A stretch of DNA of 50,759 nucleotides from Escherichia phage MikeNSara, in sequence record OR896827.1. The stretch is one strand, 5' to 3'. The position numbers and the translations under genes were made by a program. Positions 6,191-25,558 of this stretch are shown in pieces; positions within the stretch are counted from its first letter, which is position 1; each line of letters begins with the position of its first letter. A model generated the notes under the pieces. The model saw nothing but the letters and a program-made list of their open reading frames with translations, searched no databases and had not been told where the DNA came from.

Positions 6191-6209
6191 GTTTAACAAA
6201 AAGTGCTAT
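6191..6209 (-). repeat. 20-bp motif copy in reverse orientation inside late operon
   Basis: GTTTAACAAAAAGTGCTAT on + strand (complement of motif), immediately upstream of terminator 6216..6241; no good -10 at expected position. Confidence 0.5.
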
Positions 6210-9944: not shown

Positions 9945-9964
9945 CTTTTAACAAAAAGTGCTAT
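9945..9964 (-). repeat. 20-bp motif copy in reverse orientation inside late operon
   Basis: CTTTTAACAAAAAGTGCTAT on + strand between major tail terminator and chaperone gene; -10-like TAGATT weak. Confidence 0.5.
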
Positions 9965-15897: not shown

Positions 15898-18800
15898 ATG
15901 GCTAAATATATGATAAGCGGCAGTAAAGGGGGCGGTCAAAAGCCCTACGTGCCAAAAGAGATGGAAGATAACCTGATCTCGATAAACAAGATTAAAGTTT
16001 TGCTGGCTGTATCTGATGGCGAGTGCGATCCAGATTTTACGTTGCGTGATCTTTATCTTGATGATGTTCCGGTTATTGCCAGCGATGGCACTGTTAACTA
16101 CGAGGGAGTTACGGCTGAATATAGGCCAGGTACGCAGACGCAAGATTACATCCAGGGTTTTACTGACACATCAAGTGAGGTTACAGTTGCCAGAGATATT
16201 ACCGGAGACAATCCTTATGTTATTTCTGTTACAAATAAAAACCTATCTGCGGTAAGAATAAAGATCCTGATGCCAGTAGGCATTAAAACAGAGGATAATG
16301 GCGATCTTGTTGGCGTAAGGGTTGAGTATGCCGTAGATATGGCTGTTGATGGCGGTTCTTATAGCGAGGTTATGAGAGATGTAATTGACGGCAAGACAAG
16401 ATCAGGATACGACCGCAGCAGAAGGATTGATCTTCCTAAGTTTGATGAGCGCGTTTTAATCAGGGTTAAGCGACTTACCCCAGACAGCACATCTTCAAAG
16501 GTGACTGATAAAATCAAACTGCAAAGTTACGCTGAGGTTGTGGATGCAAAATTCCGTTATCCTCTGACTGGCCTTGTATTTGTAGAGTTTGACAGCGAAT
16601 TGTTTCCTACACAAATCCCTAACATTTCTATAAAAAAGAAATGGAAGATTATTAATGTGCCAAGCAACTATGATCCAATATCAAGAGAATATCACGGGTC
16701 ATGGGATGGGACTTTTAAAAAAGCGTGGTCAAATAATCCTGCATGGGTTCTTTATGATCTGGTGACTAATCAGCGTTATGGACTTGACCAGCGAGAGTTA
16801 GGAATACAGATCGACAAGTGGAGCTTATACGAGGCAGGCGTTTACTGTGATCAGAAAGTTCCAGACGGTAAGGGCGGTACAGAGCCTCGCTACCTATGCG
16901 ATGTGGTGATCCAGAATCAGGTTGAGGCTTATCAGCTAATCCGTGACATTTGCTCAATCTTTCGCGGAATGAGCTTTTGGAATGGTGAGAGCTTATCAAT
17001 CGTGATTGATAAGCCGCGCGATCCATCATACGTGTTTACTAATGAAAACGTCATCAACGGTGATTTTCAGTACACAACCGCAAGCGAAAAAAGCATGTAC
17101 ACGCAATGTAATGTGACGTTTGACGACGAACAAAACATGTATCAACAGGACGTCGAGGGGGTTTTTGATACTGAGGCGGCATTACGATTTGGATACAATC
17201 CAACAAGCATTACAGCGATCGGGTGTACACGCAGGAGCGAAGCGAATCGTCGAGGTCGGTGGGTTTTGAAAACAAACCTTAGAAGCACTACTGTAAACTT
17301 TGCTACTGGACTGGAGGGGATGATTCCATCCATAGGTGATGTGATTGCTATCGCTGATAATTTTCAGAGCAGCAATCTAACGTTAAATCTTTCGGGCCGA
17401 GTAATGGAAGTTTCAGGCTTGCAAGTTTTCGTTCCGTTTAAAGTTGATGCGCGTCCTGGTGATTTTATTATCATCAATAAGCCGGACGGCAAGCCAGTTA
17501 AGCGAACGATCTCAAAGGTGAGCGCGGACGGAAAAACCATTGAGTTAAATATTGGCTTTGGTTTTGATGTTAAGCCAGACACTGTTTTTGCGATTGACCG
17601 TACTGACCTTGCGTTGCAGCAATACGTTGTGACCACTATCAGCAAGGGAGATGACGAAAACGAGTTTACCTATTCAATCACGGCTGTGGAGTACGATCCG
17701 AACAAATACGACGAGATTGATTATGGCGTAAACATTGATGACAGGCCTACTTCAATTGTTCAGCCTGACGTGATGGCAGCGCCGGAGAATGTTCAGATCT
17801 CATCTTATTCTCGCGTCGTGCAGGGTGTTAGCGTTGAAACTATGGTTGTTTCATGGGATAAGGTTCCTTACGCATCGCTTTATGAAATGCAGTGGCGAAA
17901 AGGTGATGGTAACTGGCTGAATACGCCGCAGACCGCTAACAAAGAGATAGAGGTAGAAGGAATTTATTCAGGCAACTACCAAGTAAGGGTGAGATCCGTT
18001 TCTGCAAGCGGTAACACTTCCCCGTGGTCAAAGATTGCAACAGCTACCCTGACAGGTAAAGTTGGCGAGCCAGGAGCGCCGATTAATCTTACAGCTTCTG
18101 ATAATGAAGTTTTTGGCATTCGTGTTAAATGGGGTATGCCGGAAGGATCAGGAGATACGGCTTACATTGAGCTTCACCAATCGCCAGATGGAACGGTGGA
18201 AAACTCAAGTTTGCTTACGCTGATCCCGTATCCTCAATATGAGTATTGGCATAGCACGTTACCAGCGGGTAAAGTTGTATGGTATAGAATCCGTAGCGTT
18301 GACAGGATCGGCAATGTTTCAGGCTGGACTGACTTTGTTCGTGGCATGGCGTCAGATGATGTTGAATCTGTTTTAGGCGACATTCTTGACAAGATTTTTG
18401 ATACCGAAGCTGGTCAAGAAATCAAAGAGAACGCCATAGACAGTGCCAACAAAATCAAAGACCAAGCGCAATCAATCATCCAGAACGCATTGGCAAATGA
18501 TTCTGATGTTAGAGTTATGAAAAAGGAGAATGGGAAACGGAAAGCTGAATTTAGGCAATCTATACAGATGATTGCTGATGAAACAGAGGCAAGGGTAACA
18601 GCGTTAACGCAATTAAAAGCAGAATTTGATGAGGAGATAACTAGCGAAGTAACAAGACTTGATCAGGCGATCGCAACAGAATCAGAAACGCGAGCAACAG
18701 CTATAGAGGAATTAAAATCACAGATTGGTGATGATATTCAGGGGCAGTTAACGAGAGTTGAGGAAGCGATTGCAAGCGAAACAGAAGCGCGCGTTTCTGC

Positions 18801-19323
18801 CGATACTGCATTAACGGCAAAGTTTGGTGATCTTGAGTCAGCACTTACTGAAAAACTTGATTCATGGGCTGGCGTTGATTCAGTTGGTGCTCAATATTCA
18901 ATGAAGCTGGGCCTAACCTATAACGGTCAGCAGTACAGCGCCGGAATGGTTATGCAGTTAACGCAATCACCGCAAGGATTAATATCACAGATTCTGTTTG
19001 ACGCTAACAGATTCGCGATCATGACAAGTTCTAGCGGAGGGGTATATACGCTTCCTTTCGTGGTTGAGAATAACCAGGTTTTCATCAATAGCTTACTTGT
19101 GAAAGATGGTTCAATAACTAATGCTATGATTGGAAACTTTATTCAGTCAAACAATTTTGTTCAAAATCAGCAAGGTTGGAGGCTTGATAAAAACGGAATA
19201 TTTGAAAACTACGGATCAACTCCAGGAGAGGGAGCTACTAAATTCACCAACGAAGGATTGAAGGTAAAAGATGCAAGCGGAGTATTGAGGGTTGAAGTCG
19301 GAAGGATTACCGGAAGCTGGTAA
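15898..19323 (+). CDS. central tail fibre / host specificity protein (lambda J-like)
   Basis: 1141-aa ORF closing the tail operon; conserved J-like N-terminal region, fibronectin-III-like repeats, divergent C-terminal region; followed by bidirectional terminator. Confidence 0.85.
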   Translation: MAKYMISGSKGGGQKPYVPKEMEDNLISINKIKVLLAVSDGECDPDFTLRDLYLDDVPVIASDGTVNYEGVTAEYRPGTQTQDYIQGFTDTSSEVTVARDITGDNPYVISVTNKNLSAVRIKILMPVGIKTEDNGDLVGVRVEYAVDMAVDGGSYSEVMRDVIDGKTRSGYDRSRRIDLPKFDERVLIRVKRLTPDSTSSKVTDKIKLQSYAEVVDAKFRYPLTGLVFVEFDSELFPTQIPNISIKKKWKIINVPSNYDPISREYHGSWDGTFKKAWSNNPAWVLYDLVTNQRYGLDQRELGIQIDKWSLYEAGVYCDQKVPDGKGGTEPRYLCDVVIQNQVEAYQLIRDICSIFRGMSFWNGESLSIVIDKPRDPSYVFTNENVINGDFQYTTASEKSMYTQCNVTFDDEQNMYQQDVEGVFDTEAALRFGYNPTSITAIGCTRRSEANRRGRWVLKTNLRSTTVNFATGLEGMIPSIGDVIAIADNFQSSNLTLNLSGRVMEVSGLQVFVPFKVDARPGDFIIINKPDGKPVKRTISKVSADGKTIELNIGFGFDVKPDTVFAIDRTDLALQQYVVTTISKGDDENEFTYSITAVEYDPNKYDEIDYGVNIDDRPTSIVQPDVMAAPENVQISSYSRVVQGVSVETMVVSWDKVPYASLYEMQWRKGDGNWLNTPQTANKEIEVEGIYSGNYQVRVRSVSASGNTSPWSKIATATLTGKVGEPGAPINLTASDNEVFGIRVKWGMPEGSGDTAYIELHQSPDGTVENSSLLTLIPYPQYEYWHSTLPAGKVVWYRIRSVDRIGNVSGWTDFVRGMASDDVESVLGDILDKIFDTEAGQEIKENAIDSANKIKDQAQSIIQNALANDSDVRVMKKENGKRKAEFRQSIQMIADETEARVTALTQLKAEFDEEITSEVTRLDQAIATESETRATAIEELKSQIGDDIQGQLTRVEEAIASETEARVSADTALTAKFGDLESALTEKLDSWAGVDSVGAQYSMKLGLTYNGQQYSAGMVMQLTQSPQGLISQILFDANRFAIMTSSSGGVYTLPFVVENNQVFINSLLVKDGSITNAMIGNFIQSNNFVQNQQGWRLDKNGIFENYGSTPGEGATKFTNEGLKVKDASGVLRVEVGRITGSW

Positions 19324-19353
19324 AAAAAAGGGGGCATAGCCCCCTTTAATTTT
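19322..19353. terminator. bidirectional intrinsic terminator between tail operon and convergent minus-strand genes
   Basis: A8-GGGGGC-ATA-GCCCCC-TTT; A-run upstream and T-run downstream. Confidence 0.7.
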
Positions 19354-19966
19354 AATCATAGTGTGATGCATTTATAACCAAAACAGATGAGGCGGTGTAA
19401 ATACCAACAGGTCCAGGGGTTTGTGCAACCTGCCTGGAAAAAGAGTAGATCCCGTTACCATACGCGGCAGCTTGAGACTCAAAAATCATAAATCCACCTA
19501 AAGCCGGATTAGGTACAGAGTTTAACGCTGTTAGTGATGGCATTATTGCGCAAGGGTAGCCCAGGTTAACATCAAACGCGATCCCGCTCACACCAACTTG
19601 CTTTGCATCAAGCGGCCTCATTTTTCCATGATAAACCATTTCACCATGAGCGTTATAAAACGCTATGCCGTGACTACCTGGAGGAGTCACCATGTTACTA
19701 AAAGCATAAACAATAACCTCCCCTTGATTATCAGATCTATCAATTCTTATTGCGTGCCTTCCACCATTGTTAAATTGCGTAAATGATATGTATGATTTAG
19801 CAGTCAATCTAACAAAGAAAAAACATACCCTATCAACAGGAATTGACGAAGTAAAAACGGTTCCGGTATTAGCAGATATTACGGCCCGATCAATTAGATT
19901 AACTGGAGTGAAATCTGGACTTAACCATAACGATCCGTCTGGTTTTTTTATGCTCATCCCGTACAT
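19352..19966 (-). CDS. hypothetical protein (tail-region accessory)
   Basis: Minus-strand ORF converging on J terminator; start moved from TTG 19978 to ATG 19966; N-terminal motif shared with upstream 92-aa ORF. Confidence 0.5.
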   Translation of the reverse strand: MYGMSIKKPDGSLWLSPDFTPVNLIDRAVISANTGTVFTSSIPVDRVCFFFVRLTAKSYISFTQFNNGGRHAIRIDRSDNQGEVIVYAFSNMVTPPGSHGIAFYNAHGEMVYHGKMRPLDAKQVGVSGIAFDVNLGYPCAIMPSLTALNSVPNPALGGFMIFESQAAAYGNGIYSFSRQVAQTPGPVGIYTASSVLVINASHYD

Positions 19967-19968
19967 TA

Positions 19969-20247
19969 TCACCCCCAAAAAGTATATATATATCTTGAAT
20001 CAGATCCAGAAAGTCCACTCCATGTAACGGTGTCGCCACTTACTCCTAAGCTTGGTGCGCCAGGGTCGCCACCGCGCCAGGAATTCATGCCAACATATAT
20101 TGCTTTCAATGATTTACCTGGCGGCCTGTTTTGGTAAGTCTTGCTACCTGATGGCTGAGTGAATTTATCAAGAAAGAAAACAGGCGTTAAAAGTCCTGTA
20201 ACTTCCCTCCCTCGATCGTCATATATTGCATAACCATATTGCGCCAT
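19969..20247 (-). CDS. hypothetical protein
   Basis: RBS GAGGTG; TAATG overlap with lipoprotein gene stop; N-terminal D.G...TPV..LD motif shared with 19352..19966. Confidence 0.5.
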   Translation of the reverse strand: MAQYGYAIYDDRGREVTGLLTPVFFLDKFTQPSGSKTYQNRPPGKSLKAIYVGMNSWRGGDPGAPSLGVSGDTVTWSGLSGSDSRYIYTFWG

Positions 20248-20516
20248 TAATTACACCTCAAATCAATAAATTTACTTTCATTTTGCCAGCGGTTGATAAA
20301 TTTAACTTCTTTATTGTCAACGCTCAACCTGTATTGCTTTTGGCTGAATCTGTTTTCGCGGACTGCATTAATTTTAACTTCATGGAATCCGTTAACAGGG
20401 AATGTTTTAACGTTAAATTTTGCCGTGCAGTCGATCTCATTGAAGTTGCCAGTAGGAGACGCTGCGCACCCGGTCAGAGCGGCTACGGTGGCGATAACTG
20501 CGATTAATTTTTTCAT
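20247..20516 (-). CDS. outer-membrane lipoprotein, Cor-like superinfection exclusion candidate
   Basis: Signal peptide plus lipobox LTGC (MKKLIAVIATVAALTGC); ~89 aa; sits next to the host-specificity gene as cor does in T1/phi80/N15; start moved from TTG 20522 to ATG 20516 with RBS AAGGAG. Confidence 0.55.
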   Translation of the reverse strand: MKKLIAVIATVAALTGCAASPTGNFNEIDCTAKFNVKTFPVNGFHEVKINAVRENRFSQKQYRLSVDNKEVKFINRWQNESKFIDLRCN

Positions 20517-20547
20517 CTTCAATACTCCTTAGTTGTCGTTTCCTGTA

Positions 20548-20590
20548 ACTATACACGATCCGACAAGCGGCGTTTAGCAAAAAGTGCTAC
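20548..20590 (-). promoter_or_regulatory. motif-type promoter cassette (leftward, 19-nt variant) for Cor-like operon
   Basis: GTTTAGCAAAAAGTGCTAC at 20572..20590, 18-bp spacer, -10 TATAGT on minus strand; lipoprotein ATG 20516 downstream. Confidence 0.45.
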
Positions 20591-22846: not shown

Positions 22847-23299
22847 ATGCACGTTATTACAGGTGAGATCCGAAAAGAGCCAAAAGTAAAGCAAATGCCT
22901 AACGGCAGCACGCTATATGTTGTTGAGCTTTCCGAACGATATAAAGACCGTGAAGGCAATTGGCAGTATACAAACTATGTATTTTTCTTTAACGCGAAAA
23001 CAGACGGCCTGAATGGTTGGTATGCTGAGGCGTTCCAGGTTGGTAAGGTTATTTCTGTTTCCTGCGACACCTTGCGGGTTGAAACGCGAGAATACAACGG
23101 AAAGATTTACAGCACCGTGCAGCCTGGCGGATTTGCAAACTTGCTATTTAGCCAGCGAGGTGAAAGCCAGCAACAATATCAGCAGCGAACGCAAGGAGGC
23201 TTGGGGCAACCACAACAGCAACAGCAACAAAACCATCAACAGCAACCACAGCAAAGCAATCAGCCTCCGATTGACTTTGACGACGACATACCCTTCTAA
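22847..23299 (+). CDS. ssb: single-stranded DNA-binding protein
   Basis: OB-fold N-terminal domain, Q/G-rich linker, acidic C-terminal tail DFDDDIPF; start set to ATG 22847 with RBS AGGAG. Confidence 0.85.
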   Translation: MHVITGEIRKEPKVKQMPNGSTLYVVELSERYKDREGNWQYTNYVFFFNAKTDGLNGWYAEAFQVGKVISVSCDTLRVETREYNGKIYSTVQPGGFANLLFSQRGESQQQYQQRTQGGLGQPQQQQQQNHQQQPQQSNQPPIDFDDDIPF

Positions 23300-23303
23300 T
23301 AAC

Positions 23304-23336
23304 AAAAATCCCCGCACAAGCGGGGATTTTTTTATT
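23304..23336. terminator. bidirectional terminator between ssb and convergent tail fibre gene
   Basis: AAAAATCCCCGC-ACAA-GCGGGGATTTTTTT. Confidence 0.75.
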
Positions 23337-25467
23337 CTGTATCTGTTGGATTGTTGATTAATTTCGCTACCGCTTTTTTTAGATCCTCTATCTCTTTCTC
23401 CATTTTCTCAATTTTGTTTCCCATGTAGACCATAGCGCAAGCCATATCAGCCATTATAACGTTATTGTCAAGAGCTAGTGTATCATCTGCTTTGTCAACC
23501 ACAATCTGACGATCCACATATTCTTCACCTTCATCATTAACGCCTATAACATCTGCAAAAATGTCCCCTCCAGGTATTAGCTTTACATATTCAGGATCTA
23601 TTTTTAACAGATCCTGCGCTATCATCCCGAATCGCTGGATGTTGCTTCCATTGTATTTAAACATTGTCGGCATCCACTGCATAACGCGATCATAGCTTTC
23701 CTTTCCATCTGTATAAATTATATCGTGCTTTAAATCTCTGTCAGAGTTAGCGGCCTTTTGAAAAATGAAATTTCCACTTGATGACCATGTGGTTATATCG
23801 TTTGATACTGGATTAAACTGGAAGTTACAGAAAAAATCATGATCACCACGAAGCCTTAACGAGCAAAGAGGCCATGCATTATTACCTTGTGAGATAAGAC
23901 CCCAAGTTGCACGAATCGGGTATCCACCAGTTGATTGTGTAGCCCAAGATAATCCAGGACACCAGCCGCCATCATTATTGGTTATAATTTCACCCCAAAC
24001 AAGAGCATTACCCCAATAATTTGGATCGTCCCACCCCATTTGTTGAGTTCTTCCGGTGTATTGAGCAGAATGCGTTCTGCCGTCAGGGTAAAACTTGTGC
24101 ATATAGCTTTGAACACCATGCTTATACAGTTCAATCCCAAAAGACTCAATTTGGGTAGAGCCACCTCTGATCAAACCTGCGATAGCGTAATCGTCATACC
24201 AGTTGTAACGACTTACACCAGTCCATGTGCTGATTGGTGGATTCATAATTGAAAACAATTGCGACGCATTTCGCTCATTCCCATCTACATAAATACCAGC
24301 CCCAGGAGCTAAGGAAATGCTTTTCGCTCCTGAAAAAGCACCATTTTCATTAAACTGATAATACTGTGATGCCCCATTATGAAATACGCCTATTGTATGC
24401 TTTCCTACGCCTAATTGAGTTTCAAAATAAGACTGAGAAGATCCAATATCTTCACCTTGTGTATTCTTTAGTTTTGAATGGTATATACCTGCGTTTGCAG
24501 TAGTTGCATTTTCCGTTTCGTTTTCAACATTAAGACTCAAAAACTTTGGTGAATGTTTTTCGCCAAGTCCTATATTGTTTCTGATGCCATTTGCGTCAAT
24601 AGCTCCAGTGCCACCAGAAGAAATAGCTAAAGGAACAGTTTCAAATGACCCATACCCTGATACGTCCCTCTGGAAAACAAGAAGACCATCATCTCTGATA
24701 ACAAGCCTATATTCTCTATTTCTAGAGTACAAGATAGTATGCACGTAGTCCTGAAAAAATGAATCAATGCTAAGCGTCCGGCGAGCTTCATCAATGTCAG
24801 AAAGATCTTTAAGGTTCTGATCCTTATGCACTAGATTTTCAGGATTTACCTGTTGCGCCCACTGGCGAGCTTCATCACGCGCAGTTTCAGCGCCAGCCTT
24901 TGCATTATTTGCCTCAACGGCATGATTGCCAGCAGTATCGCGCGCCAGTTCAGCCTGATCGCGAGCATCAAAAGCCTCCTGTTTAATAGCTTCCGTTTCT
25001 GCAATAGCAGAATCCTTTATCTGTTGAGTGTCATTTTTTAATTGTTCAGTGGCTGCGCGATCTGTTGCTACTTGTTGCGCAGATTCCTTAGCTTGATTCA
25101 CCAGATCCTTTAAGCCATCCAAATCAAAATCTTTAAAAAACTCTATTGCTTCTGCAATTTCTGTTTCCTTGCTCTGGTAATAACGCAAAGTTTCCGCTAC
25201 ATCCTGCGCAAGCCCGTCAACCGTTAACGAGTCATGAAGCAAGATCAGGTAATTTGTCTTCTGGACTACCGCGCCGCCAGTAGTAATTGCGCGAATGCTT
25301 GTATCGCTAATCACTTCTGTGATCACAGCAGCTTGCAAAGGTTGAGTGAGAAAGAAAATGGTTGCACCTGGGCGAATCAATGTTAATTGCTCGCGCCATT
25401 TTGTGTCGTAACCAGTTACATAACCTTGAGCGTCCATAGACGCTTGGCCTTGTCTGTAAATCGCCAT
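23332..25467 (-). CDS. tail fibre protein with C-terminal intramolecular chaperone (peptidase S74-like) domain
   Basis: C-terminal ~130 aa ([13 protein letters not shown]...[15 protein letters not shown]...coiled coil) resembles auto-cleaving chaperone domain of endosialidase/T5 L-shaped fibres; start moved from GTG 25491 to ATG 25467 (RBS AGGAGG); flanked by bidirectional terminators. Confidence 0.7.
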
Positions 25468-25484
25468 TTGTAAAATCCTCCTAA

Positions 25485-25504
25485 ATAGCACTTTTTGCTA
25501 ATGA
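25485..25504 (+). repeat. 20-bp motif copy (variant) next to tail-fibre start, no canonical -10
   Basis: ATAGCACTTTTTGCTAATGA; expected -10 position reads TTTCAA. Confidence 0.45.
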
Positions 25505-25532
25505 CAATTCAGATAATAGCATTTTCAAATGC

Positions 25533-25558
25533 AAAAAAAAACCCCGCATAAGCGGGGC
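25533..25558 (-). terminator. intrinsic terminator after primase gene (minus strand)
   Basis: CCCCGC-ATAA-GCGGGG preceded on + strand by A9, i.e. T-run on minus strand. Confidence 0.7.

What the first reader, a model, noticed from the sequence alone, without database searches (positions are those of the whole stretch)
23332..25467. Side tail fibre with self-cleaving chaperone domain, placed away from the tail operon
The 711-aa protein ends in a domain resembling the intramolecular chaperone/peptidase S74 module of endosialidases and T5 L-shaped fibres. It lies on the minus strand between the recombination and replication modules, bracketed by bidirectional terminators and preceded by a degenerate motif copy. 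Such isolated receptor-binding genes are hot spots for horizontal exchange and host-range change.
Basis: partly seen in the sequence, partly recalled or inferred. Interest (0 to 1): 0.5.

Follow-up and report, generated by a model that had tools for sequence, protein, structure and literature searches.

The report
T1-like phage lateral tail fibre gene

Summary
The ORF is real: 23332..25467, minus strand, 711 aa, ATG preceded by AGGAGG. It is 100% identical to the GenBank "tail fiber protein" of Escherichia phage MikeNSara, whose contig length equals the window. The phage is a Drexlerviridae/Warwickvirus-like relative of phage atuna.

- **S74 domain:** the last 137 aa match Pfam Peptidase_S74 (E 1.7e-8, above the curated cut-off). 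The motif N574-S575-D-R-D-L-K580 aligns residue for residue with T5 pb1 T1263-S1264...K1269, the proven cleavage site.
- **Location:** the gene lies between ssb and primase. This is the standard lateral-tail-fibre locus of Drexlerviridae described in the BASEL papers, not an anomaly.
- **Mosaicism:** the N-terminal anchor (aa 1-~155) is 97-100% identical to same-genus phages. Residues ~228-704 are 82-89% identical to L-shaped fibres of T5-like phages and also occur in ~60-kb siphophages and lambdoid prophages. The last ~30 aa again follow the Warwickvirus lineage.
- **Terminators:** the downstream one is bidirectional; the upstream one works on the minus strand only.
- **Motif:** the "degenerate motif copy" is an inverted copy of the known T1-family 21-nt repeat.

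Verdict: interpretation supported, already known, low interest.

The parts
23304..23331 (.). Bidirectional intrinsic terminator shared by the convergent ssb (+) and fibre (-) genes
   Evidence: 12-bp stem with 6 G-C pairs, flanked by A5 and T7. It folds at -21.2 and -20.0 kcal/mol on the two strands, z about -7.
23332..25467 (-). Lateral tail fibre gene: 711 codons plus a stop at 23332-23334
   Evidence: ORF. 100% identical to 'tail fiber protein [Escherichia phage MikeNSara]'. Best PHROG tail-fibre match E 1.3e-180.
25153..25467 (-). N-terminal virion-attachment (anchor) domain, aa 1-~105
   Evidence: aa 1-183 match the N-terminus of the phage depolymerase chains 7LZJ, 7VYV and 7VZ3 at E about 4e-51. 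97-100% identical to tiwna and atuna; it is the only part conserved across Drexlerviridae fibres (PMC8594841).
24850..25218 (-). Alpha-helical (coiled-coil) shaft, aa ~84-206, holding the recombination junction and a 25-aa repeat-unit deletion
   Evidence: AF2 model has helices 84-112 and 116-206. Relatives have two TQQIKDSA units 25 aa apart and the window has one. Nucleotide similarity to tiwna stops at about 24995.
23746..24786 (-). Distal shaft plus receptor-binding region, aa ~228-574 (the exchanged cassette)
   Evidence: aa 228-704 are 82% identical to aa 444-917 of the L-shaped fibre of T5-like phage EC148, and aa 291-704 are 89% identical to OSYSP and SUT_E420. 87% nt identity to many Tequintavirus genomes. 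AF2 pLDDT is 80-92 for aa 320-460, all beta.
23335..23745 (-). Peptidase_S74 intramolecular chaperone domain, aa 575-711 (15.6 kDa); predicted to be cut off at N574|S575
23728..23745 (-). Catalytic motif S575-D-R-D-L-K580 (Ser codon 23743-23745, Lys codon 23728-23730)
   Evidence: Translation. Aligns with T5 pb1 S1264...K1269 (roles of these residues in PMC4690869). S575, D576, R577, D578 and K580 are at least 90% conserved in 66 homologues.
25477..25482 (-). Shine-Dalgarno AGGAGG, 9 nt before the ATG
   Evidence: Read from the sequence.
25485..25501 (-). Copy of the T1-family intergenic repeat core (ATAGCACTTTTTGCTAA on the + strand, 1 mismatch), inverted relative to the fibre gene
   Evidence: Consensus published for TLS (PMC11447400). 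Present in Warwickvirus relatives but not in Hanrivervirus slyngel or G29-2.
25513..25521 (-). Candidate extended -10 promoter TGcTATTAT for the fibre gene (inferred)
   Evidence: Read by eye; the sigma-70 scan did not report it. The block AAATGCTATTATCTG is conserved in atuna, tiwna, FritzSarasin, slyngel and G29-2, whereas the sequence after it is not.
25532..25558 (-). Unidirectional intrinsic terminator after the primase gene (stem 25558-25541, T9 at 25540-25532)
   Evidence: -14.7 kcal/mol on the minus strand; no T tract follows the stem on the + strand.

Best explanation
The gene encodes the lateral (side) tail fibre of a T1-like siphophage (Drexlerviridae, Tempevirinae, Warwickvirus-like; identical to phage MikeNSara).

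Inferred mechanism: three 79-kDa chains assemble into a fibre. The conserved N-terminal domain (aa 1-~105) plugs the fibre into the tail. A helical coiled coil (aa ~84-206) forms the shaft. The beta-rich distal part (aa ~228-574) forms the receptor-binding tip. The C-terminal 137 residues act as an intramolecular chaperone that drives trimerisation of the tip. Once the tip is folded, Ser575, activated by Lys580, cuts the N574-S575 bond. This releases the 15.6-kDa chaperone and leaves a 63.5-kDa mature fibre.

By analogy with T5 and other Drexlerviridae, the fibre makes the first, reversible contact with a surface glycan, probably an O-antigen. Irreversible binding is done by the GpJ tip and its separate receptor-binding protein locus.

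The gene appears to be its own transcription unit: the primase terminator upstream, a candidate extended -10 promoter, and a bidirectional terminator downstream. Its receptor-binding cassette has been exchanged by recombination, with junctions in the coiled-coil repeats and near the 3' end of the chaperone domain.

Shown here: identity, domain content, the dyad, synteny and mosaicism. Inferred: cleavage, virion incorporation, the ligand and the promoter.
For: - **Identity and annotation:** P0001 is 100% identical, 711 aa, on a contig of 50759 bp, named 'tail fiber protein [Escherichia phage MikeNSara]'. The region 18-30 kb is 98.1% identical to phage atuna, a Warwickvirus.
- **Family matches:** PHROG tail fibre families, best E 1.3e-180. 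Pfam Peptidase_S74, E 1.7e-8, above the gathering score.
- **Dyad:** SDRDLK aligns with S959...K964 of 8HQZ_d ('L-shaped tail fiber assembly') and with SSDRRIKKDI of 6F45_A. It also aligns with T5 pb1 T1263-S1264-D-A-R-L-K1269, the residues shown to be scissile and activating (PMC4690869). These residues are at least 90% conserved in 66 homologues.
- **Anchor:** aa 1-183 match 7LZJ at E 3.6e-51.
- **Synteny:** the same ssb / fibre / primase order is found in atuna, tiwna, FritzSarasin ('lateral tail fiber protein'), slyngel and G29-2. It is described for the family in PMC8594841.
- **Architecture in the literature:** PMC11990801 describes a Drexlerviridae fibre (JakobBernoulli) as an N-terminal coiled coil, a T5-like tip and a C-terminal IMC.
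- **Mosaicism:**
- **Virion evidence from a relative:** TLS Gp55, said to be structurally related to the T5 L-shaped fibre, is reported as a 78-kDa structural protein (PMC11447400).
Against: - Nothing here shows cleavage or virion incorporation for this protein.
- The fold matches to 3GW6 and 4UW8 are weak (E 0.04-0.6). The models are monomers of what should be an intertwined trimer.
- The full-length model gave no informative Foldseek match.
- The alignment to T5 pb1 covers only 14 columns and is not significant on its own (E 0.044, probability 1.2%). A profile of the whole family finds no significant similarity to the T5 pb1 tip.
- The arginine that senses correct folding in T5 and K1F could not be located by sequence.
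- The ligand is unknown. The closest relatives were isolated on K-12, which has no O-antigen, so the fibre may be dispensable on that host.
Confidence: 0.9

Rival explanations
1. It is an enzymatic tailspike (a polysaccharide depolymerase) rather than a purely binding fibre. The N-terminal anchor would carry a glycan-degrading domain, as in Klebsiella T1-like phages.
Confidence: 0.05
2. It is the terminal (irreversible) receptor-binding protein or central fibre of the phage, and so decides which outer-membrane protein is used.
For: It is the largest variable host-recognition gene in the window and is annotated simply as 'tail fiber'.
Against: A GpJ-like tip protein (15898-19323; Phage_Tail_Tip, FNIII-A_GpJ) is followed by a separate small locus that includes a Cor-like exclusion protein. 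BASEL work matched allelic variants of that locus to terminal receptor specificity in this family (PMC8594841). The gene studied here is called the lateral tail fibre in that work.
Confidence: 0.03
3. The S74 domain folds the fibre but is no longer cleaved, so it stays attached to the mature fibre.
For: No cleavage data exist for this protein. The folding-sensor arginine was not identified.
Against: Ser575 and Lys580 are intact, correctly spaced and at least 90% conserved among 66 homologues. Homologues with the same motif (T5 pb1, K1F endosialidase) are cleaved (PMC4690869).
Confidence: 0.05

Closest known systems
Lateral tail fibre of Drexlerviridae, e.g. atuna gp11, FritzSarasin (Bas04) bas04_0030, JakobBernoulli (Bas07) Gp36
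   Same: Same locus (between ssb and primase, on the opposite strand to the recombination genes). Same N-terminal anchor. Same order of coiled coil, tip and C-terminal IMC. 92.5% aa identity to atuna's fibre (PMC8594841 and PMC11990801).
   Different: Compared with atuna it lacks one 25-aa TQQIKDSA repeat unit in the shaft (711 aa against 736). Compared with tiwna and FritzSarasin it carries a different receptor-binding cassette, with 10-45% identity in the distal half.
L-shaped tail fibres of T5-like phages (Tequintavirus EC148, OSYSP, phiLLS, SUT_E420)
   Same: aa 228-704 are 82-89% identical. Nucleotide identity is 87% over about 1.2 kb, including the IMC.
   Different: The N-terminal halves are unrelated. 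The T5-like proteins are 922-933 aa, start with a different attachment region, and carry an extra ~66-aa insert before the GGTGA collar motif.
Phage T5 pb1 (Ltf) C-terminal domain with its intramolecular chaperone (PDB 4UW7, 4UW8)
   Same: Same logic: a C-terminal chaperone of about 135 aa after the receptor-binding tip. The motif (T/N)-S-D-x-x-L-K aligns with the scissile Ser1264 and with Lys1269. 4UW8 is among the best structural matches of the IMC model.
   Different: No significant sequence similarity outside the motif. The ligand of T5 pb1 (polymannose O-antigen) cannot be transferred to this protein.
Phage K1F endosialidase C-terminal intramolecular chaperone domain (PDB 3GW6); Pfam PF13884 / MEROPS S74
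   Same: Pfam family match above threshold. 3GW6 chains are the top six structural matches of the IMC model.
   Different: There is no endosialidase catalytic domain. Only the chaperone module is shared.
Depolymerase chains 7LZJ, 7VYV and 7VZ3 (from memory: tailspikes of T1-like Klebsiella phages)
   Same: Homologous N-terminal anchor and start of the shaft (aa 1-183, E about 4e-51).
   Different: Everything after aa ~183 differs. Those proteins are depositor-named depolymerases of 907-928 aa, and only their first ~186-207 residues align.

Membership tests
Peptidase_S74 / intramolecular chaperone domain (PF13884) | Match to the family profile above the curated threshold | tested here: met
   PF13884, aa 575-629, covering the whole profile (1-58 of 58), E 1.7e-8, 35.1 bits against a cut-off of 22.
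Peptidase_S74 / intramolecular chaperone domain (PF13884) | Ser-Lys dyad: scissile Ser with Lys five residues downstream, aligned to experimentally defined sites | tested here: met
   S575 and K580 align with T5 pb1 S1264 and K1269 (PMC4690869), and with the corresponding residues in 8HQZ_d and 6F45_A. At least 90% conserved in 66 homologues.
Peptidase_S74 / intramolecular chaperone domain (PF13884) | Position at the extreme C-terminus, directly after the fibre tip; size about 130-150 aa | tested here: met
   aa 575-711, 137 aa, the last residues of the protein. The T5 domain spans residues 1263-1396.
Peptidase_S74 / intramolecular chaperone domain (PF13884) | Fold: alpha/beta region, long beta-hairpin 'tentacle' and C-terminal trimeric coiled-coil helix | tested here: inconclusive
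Peptidase_S74 / intramolecular chaperone domain (PF13884) | Folding-sensor arginine from a neighbouring chain (Arg1250 in T5) | tested here: inconclusive
   No alignable region with T5 upstream of the motif. R538 and R540 are not conserved in the family consensus, while G541 and D542 are.
Peptidase_S74 / intramolecular chaperone domain (PF13884) | Autoproteolytic release of the domain after trimer folding | not testable with these tools
   Needs protein chemistry: a 63.5-kDa against a 79-kDa product, and an S575A mutant.
Drexlerviridae lateral tail fibre | Conserved N-terminal attachment region shared across the family | tested here: met
   aa 1-150 are 93-100% identical to tiwna and 70-90% to slyngel and G29-2. 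aa 1-120 are 73-100% identical to FritzSarasin, dropping to 27% over aa 121-150. Homologous to the N-terminus of 7LZJ.
Drexlerviridae lateral tail fibre | Locus between the recombination genes (exonuclease, Erf, SSB) and primase/helicase | tested here: met
   Described in PMC8594841, S1C Fig legend.
Drexlerviridae lateral tail fibre | Structural component of the virion | not testable with these tools
   Indirect only: TLS Gp55 is reported as a 78-kDa structural protein (PMC11447400).
T5 pb1-type L-shaped tail fibre (whole protein) | N-terminal region homologous to the attachment end of T5-type L-shaped fibres | tested here: not met
   The N-terminal ~227 aa are unrelated to T5-like Ltf proteins (10-40% chance-level identity in the alignment). 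Only the distal cassette is shared, so this is not a pb1 orthologue as a whole.
Endosialidase tailspike | Sialidase catalytic beta-propeller domain | tested here: not met
   No Pfam hit other than S74 at E <= 0.1, apart from a chance Kri1_C match.

The most novel reading that the evidence does not exclude
The distal cassette (aa ~228-704) may be a single receptor-binding allele, possibly specific for an O157-type O-antigen. It circulates among four unrelated tail platforms: T1-like phages, T5-like phages, ~60-kb siphophages carrying a PF08400 N-terminus, and lambdoid prophages. The coiled-coil TQQIKDSA repeats and the conserved S74 chaperone end would act as the two homology arms for exchange.

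The O157 link rests only on co-occurrence. Several T5-like carriers plaque on smooth O157:H7 strains. One of the two complete E. coli genomes holding the cassette is an O157:H7 strain with a lambdoid prophage.
Probability: 0.3. Interest if true: 0.3.

Novelty: already known. Interest (0 to 1): 0.1.

Why it matters
As a discovery it matters little. The gene is annotated in GenBank, and the literature already describes its architecture, its location and its tendency to recombine in this phage family. It does have practical uses:

- The boundaries found here (anchor to about aa 155, cassette about aa 228-704, lineage-specific last ~30 aa) mark where a fibre could be swapped to re-target a T1-like phage.
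- The near-identity of the cassette with fibres of O157-infecting T5-like phages gives a testable prediction of the primary receptor.

Tried and rejected
- **Family profile against T5 pb1:** hhalign of the family profile against T5 pb1 residues 970-1396 found nothing significant. The IMC profile against pb1 residues 1200-1396 aligned only the 14-residue catalytic motif.
- **Rfam:** the whole window at gathering thresholds gave no hits.
- **Promoter scan:** the sigma-70 scan found no two-hexamer promoter between the primase terminator and the fibre start. The extended -10 candidate was read by eye and is supported only by conservation.
- **Alternative start:** the GTG at 25491 (719 aa) was rejected. 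It has no ribosome-binding site, it overlaps the repeat copy, and all relatives start at MAIY.
- **Inverted repeats as late promoters:** this idea was dropped because the copy at 6193 is followed directly by a terminator hairpin before the capsid gene.
- **Ligand:** the one carrier-phage paper read (OSYSP) reports no receptor for this fibre allele; it only speculates about O-antigen.

Full report
**What is there**

The window holds a 2,136-nt ORF on the minus strand, 23332..25467. The longest frame starts at a GTG at 25491. The ATG at 25467 is preceded by AGGAGG at 25482-25477, and every homologue begins MAIYR, so the 711-aa reading is correct.

The protein is 100% identical to 'tail fiber protein [Escherichia phage MikeNSara]', which sits on a contig of 50,759 bp, exactly the window's length. 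The surrounding 12 kb is 98.1% identical to Escherichia phage atuna, classified as Drexlerviridae, Tempevirinae, Warwickvirus. The window is therefore a complete T1-like phage genome, and this gene is already annotated.

**Context**

- The GpJ-like tail tip gene ends at 19323.
- Three small minus-strand genes follow, one of them a Cor-like exclusion protein.
- A + strand recombination block comes next: PDDEXK exonuclease, Erf and SSB, ending at 23299.
- The fibre gene converges on that block from the minus strand.
- Upstream of the fibre on the minus strand are primase and a regulator. Helicase follows on the + strand.

The same order occurs in atuna, tiwna, FritzSarasin, slyngel and G29-2. 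The BASEL paper describes it as the lateral tail fibre locus of Drexlerviridae: it is flanked by conserved recombination and primase/helicase genes, and only the 5' end of the fibre gene is conserved (PMC8594841). 'Placed away from the tail operon' is true, but it is the family norm.

**Signals around the gene**

- *Downstream terminator.* The hairpin at 23304-23331 has a 12-bp stem flanked by an A run and a T run. It folds equally well on both strands (-21.2 and -20.0 kcal/mol, z about -7). It is a genuine bidirectional terminator for the convergent ssb and fibre genes.
- *Upstream terminator.* The hairpin at 25558-25541 has its T9 tract only on the minus strand. It terminates the primase transcript and is not bidirectional.
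- *Candidate promoter.* Between that hairpin and the ribosome-binding site lies TGcTATTAT (25521-25513), a candidate extended -10 promoter. The block around it is conserved in both Warwickvirus and Hanrivervirus relatives. This promoter is inferred, not shown.
- *Repeat copy.* One copy of the T1-family intergenic repeat also lies here. The core is ATAGCACTTTTTGCTAA at 25485-25501 on the + strand, one mismatch from the core. The repeat is known from phage TLS, with consensus aaATAGCACnnnTTGnTAAAA and unknown function (PMC11447400). The copy before the fibre gene is inverted relative to the gene and abuts its ribosome-binding site. It is absent from the Hanrivervirus relatives.

**The protein**

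PHROG tail-fibre families match with E down to 1.3e-180.

- *aa 1-183.* This region is homologous to the N-terminus of the solved phage depolymerases 7LZJ, 7VYV and 7VZ3 (E about 4e-51). It is the anchor shared by fibres and tailspikes of T1-like phages.
- *aa ~84-206.* The AF2 model predicts one long helical shaft.
- *aa ~228-574.* This part is beta-rich. It is the best-modelled region, with pLDDT 80-92 for aa 320-460.
- *aa 575-711.* The final 137 residues match Pfam Peptidase_S74 above the curated threshold (E 1.7e-8).

The motif N574-S575-D-R-D-L-K580 (nt 23748-23728) aligns with three reference sequences:

- S959...K964 of 8HQZ_d, 'L-shaped tail fiber assembly';
- SSDRRIKKDI of 6F45_A, 'Long tail fiber distal subunit';
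- T1263-S1264-D-A-R-L-K1269 of T5 pb1.

In T5, Ser1264 is the scissile residue, shown by the S1264A mutant, and Lys1269 is proposed to activate it (PMC4690869). S575, D576, R577, D578 and K580 are at least 90% conserved across 66 homologues.

**Mosaicism**

| Comparison | Backbone / flanks | Fibre gene |
|---|---|---|
| tiwna (same genus) | 97-98% | Similar only up to 23336 and again from 24995 (first ~157 codons); little or no similarity between those points (one 120-nt, 79% segment) |
| slyngel, G29-2 (Hanrivervirus) | 75-81% | 91-94% over 23377/23420-25029 |
| EC148 (T5-like) | unrelated genome | 87% over 23435-24629 |

At protein level, aa 228-704 are 82% identical to aa 444-917 of the EC148 L-shaped fibre, and aa 291-704 are 89% identical to OSYSP and SUT_E420. 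The same module also occurs in two other settings:

- on ~60-kb phages whose fibres start with a PF08400 domain;
- on lambdoid prophage fibres, including one in an O157:H7 chromosome next to a host specificity protein J gene.

The last ~30 residues ([28 protein letters not shown]) again follow the Warwickvirus lineage. They are shared with atuna and FritzSarasin but not with slyngel or EC148. The cassette therefore appears to be bounded by the coiled-coil repeats on one side and the end of the chaperone domain on the other.

Relative to atuna, slyngel and G29-2, the window has lost one 25-aa unit between two TQQIKDSA repeats.

**How it most likely works**

This section is inferred from homologues. 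The chaperone drives trimerisation of the tip and then removes itself through the Ser575/Lys580 dyad. The mature fibre, held on the tail by its N-terminal anchor, makes reversible first contact with a surface glycan. The GpJ tip and its separate receptor-binding protein locus then make the irreversible contact with an outer-membrane protein.

The ligand is unknown. Several T5-like carriers of the cassette were isolated on, or plaque on, smooth O157:H7 strains, and an O157:H7 prophage carries it. This suggests, but does not show, specificity for the O157 O-antigen.

**Comparison with what is known, and verdict**

The architecture of coiled coil, T5-like tip and C-terminal IMC is explicitly described for a Drexlerviridae fibre (PMC11990801). 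The locus and its variability are described in PMC8594841. A TLS protein related to the T5 L-shaped fibre is reported as a 78-kDa structural protein.

The protein is a member of the Drexlerviridae lateral tail fibre family and carries a bona fide S74 domain by sequence criteria. It is not a pb1 orthologue as a whole, because the N-terminus differs, and it is not an endosialidase. The feature is already known and of low interest.

Noticed in passing
window 6193-6209, 9948-9964, 25485-25501; the other 17 copies are listed: The T1-family 21-nt intergenic repeat (core ATAGCACTTTTTGTTAA) occurs 20 times. Seventeen copies point with local transcription, lie 51-81 nt upstream of a start codon and are followed about 21 nt later by a -10-like box. 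The three inverted copies all sit just upstream of virion structural genes: the major head protein, the gene after the major tail protein, and the lateral tail fibre. [quoted passage not shown]
   Followed up: partly
window 24995-25056 (aa ~148-157 of the fibre): The window lacks one 25-aa coiled-coil unit between two TQQIKDSA repeats that atuna, slyngel and G29-2 have. This looks like a repeat-mediated in-frame deletion that shortens the shaft.
   Followed up: yes
L004 425-2249 and L005 467-2292 (slyngel, G29-2): Hanrivervirus relatives carry four extra small minus-strand genes between ssb and the fibre gene that are absent from the window. The fibre locus therefore differs in gene content as well as in allele.
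   Followed up: no
GenBank MG065643, MG065649, MG065657, MG065680, MG065681: Unannotated 49,946-bp records named 'Campylobacter phage' match this coliphage fibre gene at about 90% nt identity. They look like T1-like enterobacterial phage genomes, so they are probably contaminants or mislabelled hosts.
   Followed up: no
window 19352-20522 (minus strand): Three small genes directly after the GpJ-like gene include a Cor-like superinfection exclusion protein and an 'outer membrane protein' family member. This corresponds to the terminal receptor-binding/exclusion locus described for Drexlerviridae, and it has its own forward repeat copy at 20574-20590.
   Followed up: partly
L008 5860-8304 (E. 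coli O157:H7 LSU61 chromosome): A lambdoid prophage side tail fibre (814 aa, near a host specificity protein J gene and next to mppA) carries the same receptor-binding plus chaperone cassette at about 84% nt identity. Only 2 of 5,426 complete E. coli genomes have it.
   Followed up: partly
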